Positions 6,616 to 59,179 of a stretch of DNA of 64,000 nt are shown in pieces. The notes beneath the pieces are model-generated. The model did no database searches and had not been told where the DNA came from. It saw nothing but the letters and a program-made list of their open reading frames with translations. A program made the position numbers and the translations under genes. Every line of letters starts with the position of its first letter. The stretch's first letter is position 1. Source of the stretch: a virus; IMG/VR virus record IMGVR_UViG_3300029989_000006; one strand, written 5' to 3'.

Positions 6616-6640
6616 TGCAAGGTAGAGCAGTAGGTAGCTT
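6616..6640 (+). pseudogene. orphan 5' half of an initiator-type tRNA
   Basis: TGCAAGGTAGAGCAGTAGGTAGCTT is acceptor 5' strand plus D-arm, directly upstream of the HNH gene. Confidence 0.55.
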
Positions 6641-6661
6641 AATAGATTAAAAACAAAAAGA

Positions 6662-7132
6662 ATGAAGAGTATTATTGATGAGTTAAGCGATGAACAATTT
6701 GCAGAGGTTATAAACAGTTCTGCAACTTGAAGAGAGATGGAACCTAAATTTGGGTATAAAAATAACATTTCTTCAAATTTAAAAGAAAAGATTAAAACAA
6801 GATGTGAGTTATTAGGATTAGTTTTAAATACTAGAACAACTAATACTACACCTTTAAAAACTAGAGGTAAGAAAGAATTGTTCGATTCTAGAAGTAATTG
6901 ACAGAGTGCTAGAAGTGGTATTACTAAAGATGCTAATAGAACTTATTTTAAACATAAAGAACAGAAATGTTTTATCTGTGGTTATGATAAACATATTGAA
7001 GTTGCCCATATCAAAGCTGTTGCTGATTTTGGTGATTTTGCAACAGTGGAAGAGATAAATGATATTAATAATTTGGTGGGGTTATGTCCTAACCATCATT
7101 GAGAATATGATAATGGATTATTAGTATTATAA
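6662..7132 (+). CDS. HNH endonuclease with 3 in-frame TGA codons (156 aa if TGA=Trp)
   Basis: SAT*REM, RSN*QSARS, CFICGYDKHIEVAHIK...NLVGLCPNHH*EYDNG; TGA at 6728, 6899, 7100; no TGG; missed by the ORF track. Confidence 0.85.
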
Positions 7133-7135
7133 GAT

Positions 7136-7203
7136 CGCGAGGAGGCGGGTGCCCACTGACCCTCATAAGGTTATGTTTTTGAGTTCAATTCTCAACCTCG
7201 CTA
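7136..7203 (+). tRNA. tRNA-Met(CAT), initiator-like, atypical D-arm
   Basis: CGCGAGG/CCTCGCT with 1:72 mismatch, TGACC-CTCATAA-GGTTA. Confidence 0.7.
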
Positions 7204-8298
7204 CTTTCCCTAACTTGGGGAAAAGTTGGCAGATCTCAATTGTCCGACAGCAATTTGTCGTAATAAATATTGCAACTTTTTATTATGTTTTGTTTTAGAA
7301 ACATGGTTTGTCTGACGTTACACAGACAGATGTATCAGTAGGAGTACTGATTGTAACTAAAGACCATTGAGTAAGATCAATGGTCGATAATATTTAAAAA
7401 ATTCCATAGCCTGTGGAATAGGAAGTTGATCCCTCTAGCCTATATCAGGCAGTGTAAACAACCGTTTTTGTTTATTTTTGGAGCGTTAAAAATGAAATAT
7501 GTTTTAACAATTTTTATGGAAGGACTTAGGCAGTTAAAAAATTGTGTTAATCAAGATGGATAAAAGATTTGCAAATCTTCCATCTTGATTTTTAAAATGA
7601 AATTATTAATTATTTATATATTATGGAAACAATTATTATTCCTGCAACAAAACCAAGATTTCCTGCATTAGGAAAATCAAATGATGAGGGTATGGTTGTA
7701 CTATTTTCTAATGAAACTAGTGGCACTGTAATTTCCTCAGGAAAAAGTATTACTGTTGTTGGTTTCTTTACAAAAGATTGGCAACCTGTTACAGATTCTA
7801 TAGTTTGGGAGATTCTCCCAGAAATTACAATTTATTTTAGAACTTAAAAATGAGTAAAAGACAAGACAGAAAAGCAGAAAGAGCTGGAAAGAAAGATAAG
7901 AACGGAATTTCATTAGCTTTATCTAGACCTCAACGTAGGGCAGCAAATAGATTAAACAGAGGAATTAGCCATTACAATGCTTTTCCTAAAAGTCCAGAAT
8001 CAGGACAAGGTAGACAACAACCAGGTTCACAACAACATTGGTAGATGTGGAAGATTTGCACTAATTGTGGGGCAATATATTATGATTCAAATATTTTATG
8101 TCCTAAATGTGGACATTATTCTATAAAAAACAAATAATTAGATTAAAAATGGGAACATTTATTTTATTGTTAGTTAGTGCATATTGTGTATACATTTACT
8201 TGAAGAAAAATCCTGAAAATATGGATGAAAGAGATTCAAAAACTCGTTATAGACTCGGCGAAGAATAGTTTTTAGTGTTAATATAAAAATTTAGTTAA

Positions 8299-14593: not shown

Positions 14594-15019
14594 GAATAAG
14601 TTTATAACTGAATTTGTTGAAAAATATGGAAAATTGGATTTTACAAATATTTTTGTAGTAATTTTACAAAAGTTTTATAAAATCTAATTTCCATTGTTTT
14701 ATCTTTAAAAATTAAAAGGATTATGATAAATTTATTTAAGAAGAATCCAATCTTATTTAGCTTTGCTGTATTAATTATTTTAGCACTAGGTCTTACCTTG
14801 CTTAAGGTTATTTTTTCAGTAATTACATTTCTTTTACCAGTAATAATCATTTTATTGATTGTTGCTGTGGGTATTTTACTTTATATTTATTATAAGTAAA
14901 TAATATATGGCTAGGTGATGAAATGGCAGCCATGATAGACTTAGAAATGCCGCAAAATACTTTTAAATCTATAATTTAAATTTTTTTAACTTTTAACTGT
15001 TTGTCATAAATATTTTTTG

Positions 15020-15027
15020 TATCTTTG
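15020..15027 (+). promoter_or_regulatory. Bacteroidota-type -7 promoter element (TAnnTTTG) upstream of intron HNH
   Basis: TATCTTTG 18 nt before ATG 15046; same octamer at 60847. Confidence 0.5.
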
Positions 15028-15045
15028 TGTATTAATATATTTAAT

Positions 15046-15603
15046 ATGAAAAGTAGAAAATACACCGATGAACAATTCATAGAAGCTGCTAAAAGTAGTT
15101 TATCTATGGCTGAAATGATGAGAACCCTTGGACTTTATGTTGGAGGTTCTAATTATGAAACAGTAAGAAGAAAGATAAAAGAATTTAATTTAGATGTAAC
15201 ACATTTTACAGGAGCTGCCTGAAATCAAGGAGATAGGTATAAACCTGTTAAACCAGCTCAATCTTTAGATGAAATTTTAGTAGTGAATTCAACTTTTGTG
15301 AGTACAAACCACTTAAGAGAAAGATTACTAAAAGAACACGTAAAAGAGTGTAAATGTGAAATATGTAATAATTCTGAATGATTGTCAAAACCAATATCTT
15401 TGGAATTACATCATATTAATGGAATAAAAGATGATTTAAGGATTGAGAATTTACAAATTCTATGTCCCAATTGTCATTCCTTTACAGATAATTATAGAGG
15501 AAAAAATATAGGTTTGAGTGCTCAGGAAGAGATTCCTGATGTAGAATATCTGAATATCGGCGAATCCTTAACATGTAATGATGATGGTAACACCGAGGCA
15601 TAG
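15046..15603 (+). CDS. intron-encoded HNH endonuclease with 2 in-frame TGA codons
   Basis: HFTGAA*NQG (15220) and CEICNNSE*LSKPISLELHHING...NLQILCPNCH (15379); joins two ORF-track fragments in one frame. Confidence 0.85.
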
Positions 15604-23054: not shown

Positions 23055-23168
23055 GGGGAAGTAGCCAAATGGATAGGCAATTGAATTAGGATCAATCAAA
23101 AAAATAAGTAATTTTCTAAGTTACTTACAATACCTACAAAAATGTAAGTTCGAATCTTACCTTCCCCA
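23055..23168 (+). ncRNA. tRNA-Leu(TAG)-like scaffold with helix-ACAAU module in the variable region
   Basis: GGGGAAG/CTTCCCC, ATTGA-ATTAGGA-TCAAT, insert AAGTAATT/AGTTACTT-ACAATACC. Confidence 0.75.
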
Positions 23169-30004: not shown

Positions 30005-30030
30005 GGAAGAATACTCAAGTGGTTAAGAGG
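30005..30030 (+). pseudogene. orphan 5' half of a tRNA-Ser
   Basis: GGAAGAATACTCAAGTGGTTAAGAGG directly upstream of the endonuclease. Confidence 0.6.
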
Positions 30031-30047
30031 ATTATTAATAAGTAAAA

Positions 30048-30512
30048 ATGAATACAAAAAGGATTGGAAATGTGGGAGAGGCAGTGACTATTGCAGAATT
30101 TGTAAAAAGACAAATTCCAATATATGTTTCTTTCGGGGAAAATGAGCATTGTGATTTAATTGCAGATTTTAATGGTAAATTAAATAGAGTTCAATGTAAA
30201 ACTTCTCAAATAATAAAAGATAATAAATTAATTTGAAGTATCTCCACTACTACAACTGGAGTGGGTGGTAAAGCAACTAGATATAAATATACCAAAGATG
30301 ATGTAGATTATTTTGCGTTATATAATATAGAAGCAAATTTGTTATTATTAGTTTCCATTGATTCCATTTTAAATGATACTTATATAAGTTTTAATTATCC
30401 TTTTAAAAAGAATACAAATGGAGCAATTGCCCACAATTGAGAAGAATTTATTTTAGAAAAAGTAATAAATATGGAGAGTATAATCAGTGAGGATACTGAG
30501 ACTGCCTGCTAA
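30048..30512 (+). CDS. PD-(D/E)XK endonuclease with 2 in-frame TGA codons; 3' end overlaps tRNA-Ser
   Basis: GNVGE...CDLIAD...RVQCKT...DVDYFALY; TGA at 30234 and 30438; TAA falls in the tRNA anticodon loop. Confidence 0.8.
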
Positions 30513-30559
30513 GCAGATCGTTCATGCAAATGGATCCATGTCGGATATGGATCTCTCCT
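30473..30559 (+). tRNA. tRNA-Ser(GCT), atypical D and T loops
   Basis: GGAGAG/CTCTCC, CTGC-CTGCTAA-GCAG, variable arm. Confidence 0.65.
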
Positions 30560-31980: not shown

Positions 31981-32064
31981 GGAAGTATGACAGAGTGCTA
32001 ATGTACCTGACTTGAAATCAGAGGTGCCAGGAATGGTGCGTGGGTTGAACCCCTACTACTTCCT
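31981..32064 (+). tRNA. tRNA-Ser(TGA)
   Basis: CTGA-CTTGAAA-TCAG, variable arm. Confidence 0.75.
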
Positions 32065-32087
32065 CAATTATTTATTAAACTTATAAA

Positions 32088-57419: not shown

Positions 57420-58034
57420 ATGCAACATTTTGAACTATCTCTAAATGAAGAGATTAATGTTTACATTAACAGTGGTATGACTCCTACTGAACTTTTTATT
57501 CTAAGGTTGCTATTTTTGGCGGCTGATGGAGATCAACGATATTTAATTAATTATATATCAAATATCTCTGATGGTAAGAAAATCTTAAGACAAGTTTTAG
57601 AATCATTAAAAGTAAAAAAAGTCATAAACTCCACCTTTAACATTCCTAAAGAAGGTGAAGCTTTAAATTTTAAGAATATTCCTTTTAATAAGGTAACTCT
57701 TAAAACATACATTAGGGAATCCAATGAATTAGGTAAAGAATTTTTCGATAATTATCCCATGTTTGTATCAATTAATGGGAAAATGTGTAGTTTAAGAAAT
57801 TTTACAAAAGGAAATTTTCAATCATTAGAACAGTTTTGTATTCATTATTCTGCACAAATTAAAAATTGTGGCGTAACTCATGAACGTATAATGGCTGCAG
57901 TTACCTTTGGAAGGGAAAATAATTTAATCCATTATACTATTTTAGAATTTATTGCCTCTCAGAAATGGATAGAATTAGAACACATAAAAAATTCTGACAA
58001 TATTAATGGCTATAACAACATGGAGTTATTATAA
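57420..58034 (+). CDS. hypothetical replication-region protein
   Basis: 204 aa upstream of DnaB-like gene. Confidence 0.7.
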   Translation: MQHFELSLNEEINVYINSGMTPTELFILRLLFLAADGDQRYLINYISNISDGKKILRQVLESLKVKKVINSTFNIPKEGEALNFKNIPFNKVTLKTYIRESNELGKEFFDNYPMFVSINGKMCSLRNFTKGNFQSLEQFCIHYSAQIKNCGVTHERIMAAVTFGRENNLIHYTILEFIASQKWIELEHIKNSDNINGYNNMELL

Positions 58035-58036
58035 AT

Positions 58037-59179
58037 ATGAAAAAATTAACAACAGAAGAATTTATAGATAAAGCAATTAAAATACATAGTAGTACTTATG
58101 ATTATTCAAAAGTTGTATATCAAAATACTAAAACTGCAGTTAATATAATTTGTCAGAAACATGGAGAATTTTTACAAAATCCTGTAATACATTTAGGAGG
58201 TTCAGGATGTCCTAAATGTTGAGGAAATCGATGCACATCAAAAGAATCTTTCATAGAAAAAAGTAACATTATACATAAAAACAAATATGACTACTCAAAA
58301 GTGATTTATTTAGGAAGTAAGGAAAAAGTATGTATAATTTGTTTAGAACATGGAGATTTCTGACAAACTACTAATAATCATTTAAAGGGAAAAGGTTGTC
58401 CTGTATGTGGTAGATTAAAATGTGATCTAGCAAGAATTAAATCAAAAGATTCTTTTATTGATGATTGCCACATAATTCATAATTATAAGTATGATTACAC
58501 TTTAGTAAACTATAAGACTAGAAAAGATAAAATTAAAATTGTCTGCCCTATTCATGGAGAGTTTATACAAGAAGCCAGTAGTCATTTAGCAGGACATGGT
58601 TGTCCTTTATGTAGCTGAGAAATTTTATCTGAAGATAGGGCTTTCTCTTGGGAGTTTGTTAAAGAACAGTGTAAGGAAATTCATAAAGGTTTATATAGTT
58701 ATCCTAATCAAGAATATAAAAATAGTAGATCTAAGATTGAAATTATCTGTAAAAATCATGGTGTATTTTTACAATCAATCACGAATCACCTACAGGGACA
58801 AGGTTGCCCTATTTGTAGATCTTCTAAAGGAGAACTATTGATTCACAACTGATTGAAAGAAAATAATATTCCTTTTAGAACTCAATTTGAATTAATTACA
58901 ACTGAAATTGCTAGAAATACTAATTTGATGAAGATTGATTTCTTTGTTAAATTTAATAATAAACAGTATTTTATAGAGTTTGATGGGATTCAGCATTTTC
59001 AATATGTCCCTATTTTTCATAAAGGAGGAATTATTGATTTTGAAAAAGAACAGAGAAGGGATAAAATTTTAAATGAATTTTGTGAATTGCATAAAGATAA
59101 AATAACTTTAGTTAGATTCAATTATAAACAAAATAATGAAGAAATAATTAAAGAATTAAATAAAATATTTATAAATTAA
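58037..59179 (+). CDS. free-standing endonuclease: four Zn-ribbon repeats plus PD-(D/E)XK/Vsr-like domain, 4 in-frame TGA codons
   Basis: repeat YxY..ICxxHGxFxQ...HL.G.GCPxC x4; IDFF...IEFDGIQHF; TGA at 58220, 58361, 58616, 58850. Confidence 0.85.

What the first reader, a model, noticed from the sequence alone, without database searches (positions are those of the whole stretch)
30005..30559. Second tRNA-splitting endonuclease whose coding 3' end forms the 5' half of tRNA-Ser(GCT)
Seen: canonical tRNA-Ser 5' half (30005-30030), then a PD-(D/E)XK ORF that, with TGA read through, runs into the downstream tRNA-Ser and stops at TAA in its anticodon loop (30510-30512). The architecture matches 6616-7203 with an unrelated nuclease fold. 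Inference: a convergent tRNA-targeted homing strategy; RNase P processing of the tRNA would cut the nuclease mRNA before its stop codon, making a non-stop substrate for tmRNA and a built-in off switch.
Basis: partly seen in the sequence, partly recalled or inferred. Interest (0 to 1): 0.72.

Follow-up and report, generated by a model that had tools for sequence, protein, structure and literature searches.

The report
Homing nuclease gene overlapping replacement tRNA-Ser
A selfish DNA-cutting enzyme gene sits in the wreck of a serine tRNA gene of a gut crAss-like phage and runs straight into a second, odd-looking serine tRNA that it seems to have brought as a replacement; related phages show the same package, so it is a real variant of a known kind of selfish element.

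Summary
Window 30005-30030 is the first 26 nt of a canonical tRNA-Ser(GCT) gene. A 154-codon ORF (30048-30512) belongs to the I-Ssp6803I (PDDEXK_5) family. Its two TGA codons fall on conserved Trp positions, in a phage that reads TGA as sense in its late genes. Its last 40 nt are the 5' part of an 87-nt tRNA-Ser(GCT)-like gene (30473-30559), and the stop TAA lies in the anticodon loop.

It is not an intron. The remnant lacks nt 27-35 and no group I core is present.

Relatives repeat the design. Five lineages have the nuclease ORF running 9-47 nt into a downstream tRNA-Ser(GCT). One of those tRNAs (L093) is fully canonical and has a remnant that also ends at nt 26. All ten tRNA-Ser(GCT)-linked nucleases fall in one clade of 11 with L023 (support 98/93).

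Best reading: a free-standing homing endonuclease cassette with a linked, divergent, probably cleavage-resistant tRNA ("cut and rescue"). The orphan half is the scar of the resident gene.

- Whether the window's odd tRNA works is open, because ARAGORN and Rfam both miss it.
- The RNase P/tmRNA off-switch is untested.
- No empty site was found.

This scan has reported the same design on other DNA. The closest published analogue is T4 SegB.

The parts
30005..30030 (+). Orphan 5' remnant (nt 1-26) of a canonical tRNA-Ser(GCT) gene, taken as the scar of the resident gene
   Evidence: 25/26 identical to the first 26 nt of the intact tRNA-Ser(GCT) of L149. Its 18-nt D-arm word continues as tRNA-Ser(GCT) in 61 of 80 metagenome hits. 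22 identical positions with the 5' part of the L093 tRNA-Ser(GCT); none of 5000 random genome 26-mers scored as well. It lacks nt 27-76.
30031..30047 (+). AT-rich leader of the nuclease cassette (ATTATTAATAAGTAAAA)
   Evidence: The word ATTATTAAT also precedes the ATG of the closest homologue in L003. L093 and the HNH element have similar AT-rich leaders right after their remnants.
30048..30512 (+). PD-(D/E)XK homing endonuclease gene of the I-Ssp6803I / PDDEXK_5 family; 154 aa with TGA read as Trp
   Evidence: Pfam PF11645 E 2.6e-19; phrog_5018. The family profile hits PDB 2OST at E 2e-11. The AlphaFold model (pLDDT 85) matches 2OST best, TM 0.66-0.70. The residues invariant across the family (D36, Q49, K51) and E11 are present. 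103 homologues were found.
30234..30236 (+). In-frame TGA, codon 63, read as Trp
   Evidence: Aligns with W in the closest homologues (P0004, P0005, P0007, P0018). That codon is TGG in L003 and L004.
30438..30440 (+). In-frame TGA, codon 131, read as Trp
   Evidence: Aligns with the family-consensus NW motif. That codon is TGG in L003.
30473..30559 (+). Divergent tRNA-Ser(GCT)-like gene. Acceptor GGAGAG/CTCTCC; D arm TCAGT-GAGGAT-ACTGA; anticodon arm ACTGC-CTGCTAA-GCAGA; long variable arm TTCAT-GCAA-ATGGA; T arm TCCAT-GTCGGAT-ATGGA; U73.
   Evidence: Sequence. RNAalifold with five homologous downstream tRNAs gives a cloverleaf plus variable arm with 30 pairs, 18 of them with compensatory changes. 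MFE fold. Not detected by ARAGORN or Rfam.
30473..30512 (+). 40-nt dual-coding overlap: the C-terminal tail (M)ESIISEDTETAC plus the stop is also tRNA nt 1 to anticodon-loop position 38
   Evidence: The tail is absent from 141-aa homologues and is predicted disordered, with pLDDT falling from 56 to 44.
6616..7204 (+). Sibling element with an unrelated nuclease: 5' remnant of an initiator-like tRNA (6616-~6640), HNH ORF 6662-7132 (three TGA=W), and a tRNA-Met(CAT)-like gene at 7136-7204
   Evidence: (HNH_2, E 2.9e-9).

Best explanation
This is a free-standing, intron-less homing endonuclease cassette lodged in the tRNA-Ser(GCT) gene of a TGA-recoded crAss-like phage.

The nuclease belongs to the I-Ssp6803I family, whose one characterised member cuts the anticodon region of a tRNA gene. 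It is inferred to cut canonical tRNA-Ser(GCT) genes of co-infecting phages that lack the cassette. Repair from the cassette-bearing genome then copies in the nuclease gene together with its linked, sequence-divergent tRNA-Ser(GCT). That tRNA is presumed to resist cutting and to replace the destroyed gene ('cut and rescue'). The orphan 26-nt 5' piece upstream is what remains of the resident gene.

The nuclease ORF has no stop codon of its own before the tRNA, so it reads into the tRNA until the first in-frame stop. In this phage that is 40 nt in, at TAA in the anticodon loop. The extra 12-13 residues are a disordered tail.

Both Trp codons are TGA, so full-length enzyme can be made only once the phage's tRNA(UCA) suppressor is active, that is, late in infection.

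Shown here: the anatomy, family membership and fold, TGA=Trp, recurrence of the architecture, and a tRNA-Ser(GCT)-specific nuclease clade.

Inferred: the cleavage target, resistance of the linked tRNA, actual homing, and whether the odd tRNA is functional (about even odds).
For: Anatomy.

Family and fold. The family-invariant residues D36, Q49 and K51, and E11, are present.

Genetic code: late minus-strand genes are full of in-frame TGA, for example 23 in a 1469-codon ORF, while large plus-strand genes have none. A tRNA(UCA) lies at genome c60008-60081. Both TGA codons sit on conserved Trp.

Remnant: it equals the start of a canonical tRNA-Ser(GCT) gene.

Recurrence of the design [remnant]-[nuclease]-[whole tRNA-Ser(GCT) overlapped by the ORF end]:
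- L093: remnant also ends at nt 26, canonical tRNA found by default ARAGORN, 47-nt overlap.
- L013: 21-nt remnant, 10-nt overlap.
- L012: 9-nt overlap.
- L014 and L021: 22-nt overlap.

Mirror forms: L003 has an intact tRNA-Ser(GCT), then the nuclease, then an orphan 3' half that begins at the same 'TAA GCAGATCG'.

Phylogeny: all 10 tRNA-Ser(GCT)-linked nucleases plus L023 form one clade (98/93). tRNA-Asn-linked and tRNA-Lys-linked nucleases form other clades.

Downstream tRNAs: stems covary.

Stability: the locus is identical over 6.4 kb in an independent JGI contig, and the exact protein is on 6 contigs.

Precedent: T4 SegB is a free-standing nuclease in a tRNA cluster that cuts tRNA genes and drives inheritance of neighbouring tRNA genes (PMC2330249). 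A TGA-recoded intron nuclease in an early gene of recoded phages has been noted (bioRxiv 10.1101/2021.08.26.457843).
Against: - No cassette-free relative of this phage was found, so presence/absence polymorphism at this site, and hence mobility, is not shown.
- The window's tRNA is the most aberrant of its group. It has 4 nt instead of 2 between the acceptor and D stems, a T loop GTCGGAT (G54/G58), and a T-A pair at 53-61. ARAGORN and Rfam both miss it, and its MFE z-score is only -1.6. It may no longer work.
- The remnant could come from random decay of one of two redundant tRNA copies rather than from a cut. L003 and the window look like complementary decays of [canonical tRNA]-[nuclease]-[odd tRNA].
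- Cleavage specificity is unknown.
Confidence: 0.72

Rival explanations
1. Decaying wreck. The nuclease landed in the tRNA cluster long ago, and both the orphan half and the downstream tRNA-like sequence are pseudogenes drifting to extinction. The ORF-tRNA overlap and the long read-through only reflect loss of the TAA at tRNA nt 7-9, with no function for either partner.
For: ARAGORN and Rfam do not detect the downstream tRNA. It has a 2-nt insertion in the 8-9 linker relative to its homologues and a non-consensus T loop. L023 and L091 show that the tRNA pieces can be lost altogether. Phage tRNAs are often dispensable.
Against: The nuclease ORF is intact, with the family-invariant D36, Q49 and K51 and E11 present and a confident fold. 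All four stems and the variable arm of the tRNA still pair. They differ from homologues by compensatory changes. The anticodon loop CTGCTAA is perfect. It is the phage's only tRNA for AGY, which make up 27-29% of its Ser codons. It shares the unusual U73 with the phage's other tRNA-Ser.
Confidence: 0.2
2. Built-in off switch. The stop codon is kept inside the tRNA on purpose. RNase P cuts at the tRNA 5' end (30472/30473) and removes the stop from the nuclease mRNA. Ribosomes then stall and tmRNA tags the nuclease for degradation, which limits its dose. This would add to the main explanation rather than replace it.
For: In five lineages the nuclease core ends 3-5 codons before tRNA G1 and no stop codon precedes the tRNA. 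Overlaps are 9, 10, 22, 40 and 47 nt. Rfam tmRNA hits lie close to homologous nucleases in L003 and L032.
Against: There is no expression or processing data. The overlap length and reading frame vary, as expected from simple read-through into whatever follows. In intron-borne relatives the ORF likewise runs into the ribozyme core, so reading into the flank is a family habit without RNase P. Rfam at gathering found no tmRNA in the window.
Confidence: 0.12
3. Intron. The orphan 5' half and the downstream 3' part are exons of one tRNA-Ser(GCT) gene, and the nuclease gene lies in a spliced intervening sequence, as I-Ssp6803I does in tRNA-fMet.
For: The family prototype is intron-encoded. Many phage homologues do sit in group I introns within tRNA anticodon loops. 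In L072 Rfam Intron_gpI matches at E 0.0025.
Against: The remnant stops at nt 26 and lacks the 5' strand of the anticodon stem and nt 32-35. Its acceptor strand GGAAGAA pairs poorly with TCTCTCC (2 mismatches and a G-U), whereas the ORF-embedded GGAGAG pairs perfectly. Only 17 nt lie outside the ORF on the 5' side and none on the 3' side. There is no Intron_gpI signal even at E<=10. ARAGORN intron mode finds nothing spanning the ORF.
Confidence: 0.02
4. Dead nuclease gene. The TGAs are real stops, and the 'ORF' is two or three fragments of a pseudogene.
For: Under table 11 the frame breaks at 30234 and 30438. Neighbouring plus-strand genes use TGG only.
Against: Both TGAs fall exactly on conserved Trp, and the ORF has no TGG, no frameshift and no other stop. 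The genome recodes TGA and has a tRNA(UCA). The other mobile nuclease genes of the plus arm show the same pattern.
Confidence: 0.03

Closest known systems
I-Ssp6803I (PDB 2OST), the PD-(D/E)XK homing endonuclease of the Synechocystis tRNA-fMet group I intron; Pfam PF11645 PDDEXK_5
   Same: Same protein family and fold. The family-invariant D36, Q49 and K51 and E11 are present in the window protein. Similar size, about 150 aa. The target is a tRNA gene, with the insertion or junction in the D/anticodon region. From PMC3384342: it acts as a tetramer on a 23-bp pseudo-palindromic site.
   Different: It is not in an intron, because no ribozyme core is present. It is in a phage rather than a cyanobacterium. 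It targets tRNA-Ser(GCT). It is linked to a whole replacement tRNA, and its ORF overlaps that tRNA. It is TGA-recoded. Identity to 2OST is only about 20%.
T4 SegB, a free-standing GIY-YIG homing endonuclease in the T4 tRNA gene cluster (PMC2330249)
   Same: It is a free-standing nuclease gene among phage tRNA genes. [quoted passage not shown]
   Different: Different fold. SegB recognises the conserved T-arm motif and cuts at the 3' ends of many tRNA genes. SegB does not leave tRNA halves and does not overlap a tRNA. Homing is shown experimentally for SegB only.
Stop-codon-recoded phages with code-gated late genes; a TGA-rich intron endonuclease in an early gene of Agate phages (Borges et al., bioRxiv 10.1101/2021.08.26.457843)
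   Same: The nuclease gene lies in the standard-code (early) arm, yet its Trp codons are TGA, so production should wait for the suppressor tRNA.
   Different: Here the nuclease is free-standing, sits in a tRNA cluster, and overlaps a tRNA.
Integrative elements that insert in tRNA genes and carry a copy of the displaced tRNA part. The analogy is drawn from general knowledge. Earlier scan note e1-4039051 also names mobile endonuclease ORFs of fungal mitochondria.
   Same: The logic of rebuilding the target gene on insertion and leaving a displaced partial copy as a scar.
   Different: The presumed mechanism here is double-strand-break repair driven by a nuclease, not an integrase. In this case the 5' part, or the whole tRNA, is supplied.

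Membership tests
PDDEXK_5 / I-Ssp6803I homing endonucleases | Sequence match to the family model above the curated cut-off | tested here: met
   PF11645 scores 70.1 bits against a cut-off of 26.1, E 2.6e-19. The profile of 24 homologues hits 2OST at E 2e-11.
PDDEXK_5 / I-Ssp6803I homing endonucleases | Restriction-endonuclease-like fold with the conserved acidic, Gln and Lys positions | tested here: met
   The model (pLDDT 85) has 2OST chains A-D as its top four PDB matches, TM 0.60-0.70. D36, Q49 and K51 are invariant in alignment A1 and E11 is present. That these residues are the catalytic set is my recollection of the 2OST work, not tested here.
PDDEXK_5 / I-Ssp6803I homing endonucleases | Site-specific cleavage of an intron-less or cassette-less tRNA gene | not testable with these tools
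   This needs an enzyme assay. It is supported only indirectly, by the nuclease clades specific for one tRNA identity.
Group I intron-encoded endonuclease | ORF embedded in a group I ribozyme that interrupts a gene whose exons are otherwise complete | tested here: not met
   No Intron_gpI match at E<=10. The 5' piece lacks nt 27-35. Only 17 nt of non-ORF sequence are present. Intron-borne relatives do show core sequence.
Free-standing homing endonuclease (SegB-like intron-less homing) | Nuclease gene between or within genes, and its presence varies among close relatives | tested here: inconclusive
   The gene is free-standing and in a tRNA cluster. No close relative without it was found: the best neighbour-gene relatives are only 65% identical and are arranged differently. 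All six contigs that carry the exact nuclease protein therefore have the gene; the one shown is identical over 6.4 kb.
Free-standing homing endonuclease (SegB-like intron-less homing) | Preferential inheritance with co-conversion of flanks in mixed infection | not testable with these tools
   An experiment is required.
Canonical elongator tRNA (the downstream gene at 30473-30559) | Recognised by tRNA covariance or heuristic models | tested here: not met
   ARAGORN at default and at -ps80, and Rfam RF00005 at E<=10, find nothing. The homologues in L012 and L093 are found at default settings.
Canonical elongator tRNA (the downstream gene at 30473-30559) | Cloverleaf with a 7-nt anticodon loop (U33, purine 37) and, for Ser, a long variable arm; stems supported by covariation | tested here: met
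   The loop is CTGCTAA. The variable arm is a 5-bp stem with a GCAA loop. There are 30 consensus pairs, 18 with compensatory changes across 6 sequences.
Canonical elongator tRNA (the downstream gene at 30473-30559) | Conserved T loop (T54 Psi55 C56 ... A58), G53-C61 pair, and a 2-nt 8-9 linker | tested here: not met
   The T loop is GTCGGAT, the 53-61 pair is T-A, and the linker is ATAA. The GTCGGRN loop occurs only in tRNA pieces next to Ser-clade nucleases.
TGA-recoded (code 4-like) phage | In-frame TGA in long conserved genes, a suppressor tRNA(UCA), and TGA at conserved Trp positions | tested here: met
   Minus-arm ORFs of 300 codons or more hold 166 TGA against 96 TGG.

The most novel reading that the evidence does not exclude
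The stop codon is kept inside the tRNA as a selected throttle. RNase P maturation of the linked tRNA strips the stop from the nuclease mRNA, so only unprocessed transcripts give free enzyme and the rest give tmRNA-tagged, degraded product. Together with the TGA gate, this would put a selfish nuclease under two layers of translational control borrowed from tRNA biology. The design would be shared by a whole clade of phage I-Ssp6803I-like nucleases.
Probability: 0.12. Interest if true: 0.75.

Novelty: new variant of a known kind. Interest (0 to 1): 0.5.

Why it matters
- It extends the I-Ssp6803I family. A 2012 review (PMC3384342) described that family as essentially cyanobacterial, with intron-borne members. 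Here it appears as a large set of gut-phage nucleases whose clades track single tRNA identities (Ser-GCT, Asn, Lys) and which switch between intron-borne and free-standing forms.
- It shows a way for a selfish nuclease to invade a gene without an intron: bring a divergent replacement copy, as in synthetic 'cleave and rescue' gene drives.
- It may help explain orphan tRNA halves and odd-looking tRNAs in phage tRNA clusters, which annotation pipelines miss or miscall.
- It provides natural same-strand protein/tRNA dual coding of 40-47 nt.
- The overlap makes a specific hypothesis directly testable: RNase P versus translation, with non-stop decay.

Tried and rejected
1. Group I or other intron. 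Rejected: no core is present, the remnant is truncated at nt 26, and the acceptor strands do not match.
2. Split or trans-joined tRNA from the orphan half. Rejected for the same reasons.
3. Pseudogene with real TGA stops. Rejected: the TGAs fall on conserved Trp and the genome recodes TGA.
4. Empty-site search. GenBank phages gave only tRNA hits. Neighbour gene DUF7873 in IMG/VR gave 4 loci of 65% identity or less with a different arrangement. Two exact words from the remnant gave 0 hits in IMG/VR. An 18-nt word in metagenomes gave many intact tRNA-Ser(GCT) genes, but none syntenic with this phage; tblastx gave no hits.
5. Looking for the matching 3' strand TTCTTCC of the orphan half nearby. 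None was found on the + strand within about 7 kb.
6. Testing whether the GTCGGRN T loop is a general trait of these phages' tRNAs. It is not. It occurs only beside Ser-clade nucleases. This is unexplained; it could reflect decay or immunity.
7. The order of events could not be resolved. The remnant may be a cut-site scar, or one of two redundant tRNA copies may have decayed at random.

Full report
**Context.** The window carries about 30 tRNA genes.

The genome has two coding regimes. Large minus-strand genes are full of in-frame TGA, for example 10 in a 2900-codon ORF and 23 in a 1469-codon ORF. Large plus-strand genes have none and use TGG. A tRNA with anticodon UCA lies at genome c60008-60081. 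This matches the published pattern of stop-codon-recoded phages with code-gated late genes (bioRxiv 10.1101/2021.08.26.457843).

The stretch 30005-30030 (GGAAGAATACTCAAGTGGTTAAGAGG) has a 7-nt acceptor strand, U8 A9, and a 3-bp D stem CTC/GAG around AAGTGGTTAA. Its 18-nt D-arm word was fetched in 80 metagenome stretches. Of these, 61 continue as tRNA with anticodon GCT and 11 as Ser GGA. The intact tRNA-Ser(GCT) of L149 matches it at 25 of 26 positions. The piece stops exactly at nt 26, and an AT-rich leader follows.

The ORF 30048-30512 gives 154 aa under code 4, with TGA at codons 63 and 131 and no TGG. It matches Pfam PDDEXK_5 (E 2.6e-19) and phrog_5018. A profile of 24 homologues hits PDB 2OST, I-Ssp6803I, at E 2e-11. 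An AlphaFold model (pLDDT 85) has the four 2OST chains as its best PDB matches, with TM 0.60-0.70. D36, Q49 and K51 are invariant in the family alignment and E11 is present.

Both TGA codons align with Trp in the nearest homologues, and those codons are TGG in phages that do not recode TGA. TGA therefore means Trp here, and the ORF ends at TAA 30510-12.

**The downstream tRNA.** From 30473 the sequence forms these arms:
- acceptor GGAGAG/CTCTCC
- D arm TCAGT-GAGGAT-ACTGA
- anticodon arm ACTGC-CTGCTAA-GCAGA (anticodon GCT at 30508-10)
- a long variable arm, TTCAT-GCAA-ATGGA
- T arm TCCAT-GTCGGAT-ATGGA
- discriminator U73 at 30559

ARAGORN and Rfam do not detect it, even at relaxed thresholds. 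Three features are aberrant: 4 nt between the acceptor and D stems, G54/G58 in the T loop, and a T-A pair at 53-61.

It is nonetheless homologous to tRNA-Ser(GCT) genes that sit in the same place in relatives. With those it gives a consensus cloverleaf of 30 pairs, 18 of which show compensatory changes. It is the phage's only tRNA for AGY codons, which make up 27-29% of Ser codons. It shares U73 with the phage's tRNA-Ser(TGA). I put the odds that it still works at about even.

**It is not an intron.** The orphan half lacks nt 27-35. Its acceptor strand pairs poorly with TCTCTCC, whereas the ORF-embedded GGAGAG pairs perfectly. Only 17 nt lie outside the ORF. No group I signal appears at E<=10.

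**Relatives.** The protein has 103 homologues. All 80 IMG/VR loci fetched lie in phage tRNA clusters. Four arrangements occur.

- (A) Nucleases inside group I introns in the anticodon loops of tRNA-Asn, tRNA-Lys and a UUA-anticodon suppressor. Core sequences flank the ORF, and the ORF tail 'CVETLHE' reads into the core (Rfam Intron_gpI E 0.0025 in L072).
- (B) An intact tRNA, then the nuclease, then an orphan 3' half starting in the anticodon loop. Examples are L024 (Asn), L075, L064 and L077 (Lys), and L003 (Ser-GCT).
- (C) The window's design: an optional 5' remnant, the nuclease, then a whole tRNA-Ser(GCT) that the ORF runs into.
- (D) A tRNA-Ser(GCT) gene cleanly split at 35/36 by a 446-nt insert that is almost all ORF (L004, L005, L008, L009, L010).

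The members of design (C):

| Locus | 5' remnant | ORF-tRNA overlap | Notes |
|---|---|---|---|
| L093 | ends at nt 26 | 47 nt | canonical tRNA found by default ARAGORN; stop lies after the anticodon |
| L013 | 21 nt | 10 nt | |
| L012 | none | 9 nt | stop TAA = tRNA nt 7-9, GGAGAGTAA |
| L014, L021 | none | 22 nt | |
| Window | 26 nt | 40 nt | |

Where relatives have GGAGAGTAA, the window has GGAGAGTATAA. Its long read-through to the anticodon loop therefore looks secondary.

A maximum-likelihood tree places all ten tRNA-Ser(GCT)-linked nucleases plus L023 in one clade (98/93). Its neighbours are tRNA-Asn-linked clades, and the tRNA-Lys-linked clade is separate. Nuclease lineage therefore tracks tRNA identity across arrangements B, C and D. 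This is the strongest indirect evidence that these enzymes target tRNA genes of one identity.

The window's nearest relative is L003, at 56% identity. The two share the leader word ATTATTAAT and the ORF end 'TG[CT] TAA GCAGATCG'.

**Mechanism proposed.** This is a free-standing homing cassette made of leader, nuclease and a divergent tRNA-Ser(GCT). The nuclease cuts canonical tRNA-Ser(GCT) genes. Repair copies the cassette in, so the resident gene is destroyed, leaving nt 1-26, and is replaced by the linked variant. The variant differs from canonical genes at nearly every stem position. For example, the anticodon stem is ACTGC/GCAGA against GCAGT/ACTGC in L003-upstream, L149 and L175. It is therefore plausibly immune to cutting.

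The TGA codons should delay full-length enzyme until the suppressor tRNA is present. The tRNA-encoded tail is predicted to be disordered.

What is shown here is the anatomy, family, fold, code, recurrence and clade structure. Cleavage, immunity, homing and tRNA function are inferred.

An alternative history is an ancestral [canonical tRNA]-[nuclease]-[odd tRNA] that lost one redundant half in each lineage, the window and L003 being complementary outcomes. This cannot be excluded. However, the remnants end at nt 26 in the window and in L093, and at about nt 25-26 in the HNH sibling, which favours a cut-related scar.

No stop codon precedes the tRNA in five lineages. RNase P cleavage would therefore yield a non-stop nuclease mRNA. 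Rfam tmRNA hits lie close to homologues in L003 and L032. This is compatible with a throttle, but nothing tests it. Reading into the flank is also seen in the intron-borne relatives. I give it about 0.12.

**Convergence.** The element at 6616-7204 repeats the layout with an HNH nuclease (HNH_2, E 2.9e-9) whose three Trp codons are all TGA, followed 3 nt later by a tRNA-Met(CAT)-like gene. Further nuclease-type ORFs of the plus arm also carry TGA.

**Known or new.** Published relatives:
- T4 SegB, a free-standing nuclease in a tRNA cluster that cuts tRNA genes and drives their inheritance (PMC2330249).
- I-Ssp6803I, the same family, in an intron of tRNA-fMet. A 2012 review said its relatives are generally encoded in cyanobacteria (PMC3384342).
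- A TGA-recoded intron nuclease in an early gene of recoded phages.

Literature searches found no description of a nuclease-plus-replacement-tRNA package with an ORF/tRNA overlap. The library is incomplete, however. Earlier follow-ups of this scan describe the same 'cut and rescue' design with other nucleases and tRNAs on other DNA (e1-5365577, e1-337761, e1-4039051).

I class this as a new variant of a known kind, of moderate interest.

**Limits.** No empty site was found. There are no expression data. The window's tRNA is the least canonical of its group. The alignment behind the covariation has only six sequences.

Noticed in passing
L004:2954-3485; L008 and L009:1454-1988: In three different phages, tRNA-Ser(GCT) genes are split cleanly at anticodon position 35/36 by a near-identical 446-nt insert. 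426 nt of the insert are the nuclease ORF. The exons are intact and mutually complementary. The insert ends are not group-I-like (no U before it, no G at its end), and a T-arm-like hairpin (TTAGG-TTCGATT-CCTAA) sits in the ORF 3' end. This is either a very recent tRNA-killing insertion or an unknown way of removing the insert.
   Followed up: partly
L007, L020, L032-L035, L066, L069, L072, L073, L084 (about 1350-2060 in each): The same nuclease family sits inside group I introns in the anticodon loops of phage tRNA-Asn, tRNA-Lys and UUA-anticodon (TAA-suppressor) tRNAs. The ORF's C-terminal 'CVETLHE' tail is the translation of the intron core. Rfam misses these introns at gathering because the ORF splits them.
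   Followed up: partly
window 6662-7132, 15010-15600, 30048-30512, 58016-59176: In the otherwise TGA-free plus arm, in-frame TGA codons are concentrated in mobile nuclease-type genes: two HNH, the PDDEXK_5 gene, and a DUF4379 zinc-finger protein with 4 TGA. These genes have almost no TGG. This fits code-gated late expression of selfish nucleases.
   Followed up: partly
window 30540-30546; L003:3454; L012:1146; L014 and L015:1480: The unusual T loop GTCGGRN (G54/G58) was found almost only in tRNA genes or halves that directly flank Ser-clade nucleases. It lies downstream in the window and L003, and upstream (in a tRNA-Ser(TGA)) in L012, L014 and L015. The cause is unknown. It could be immunity to a T-arm-reading nuclease or shared ancestry of cassette-borne pieces.
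   Followed up: partly
window 23055-23168: Rfam scores a 114-nt tRNA at 53 bits. ARAGORN in intron mode reads it as a tRNA with a 42-nt insertion at 37/38 of the anticodon loop.
   Followed up: no
window 31981-32065 and 30473-30559: Both serine tRNAs of this phage have U73 as discriminator. The homologous tRNA-Ser(GCT) genes of L012, L013, L014 and L093, and the metagenomic tRNA-Ser genes, have G73.
   Followed up: no
L003:1428-1947; L032:2179-2462: Rfam tmRNA matches above gathering (76 and 61 bits) lie within 1-1.5 kb of the nuclease genes in two related phages.
   Followed up: no
L091:1380-1500: A complete but non-canonical tRNA-Ser(GCT) (D arm AAC-CTGAGGGGATC-AGG, T loop ATCGTAT) lies directly upstream of the nuclease, with no remnant downstream. 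The same odd D arm is the orphan remnant in L093. Several tRNA-Ser(GCT) allele types therefore seem to swap the roles of 'resident' and 'replacement'.
   Followed up: partly
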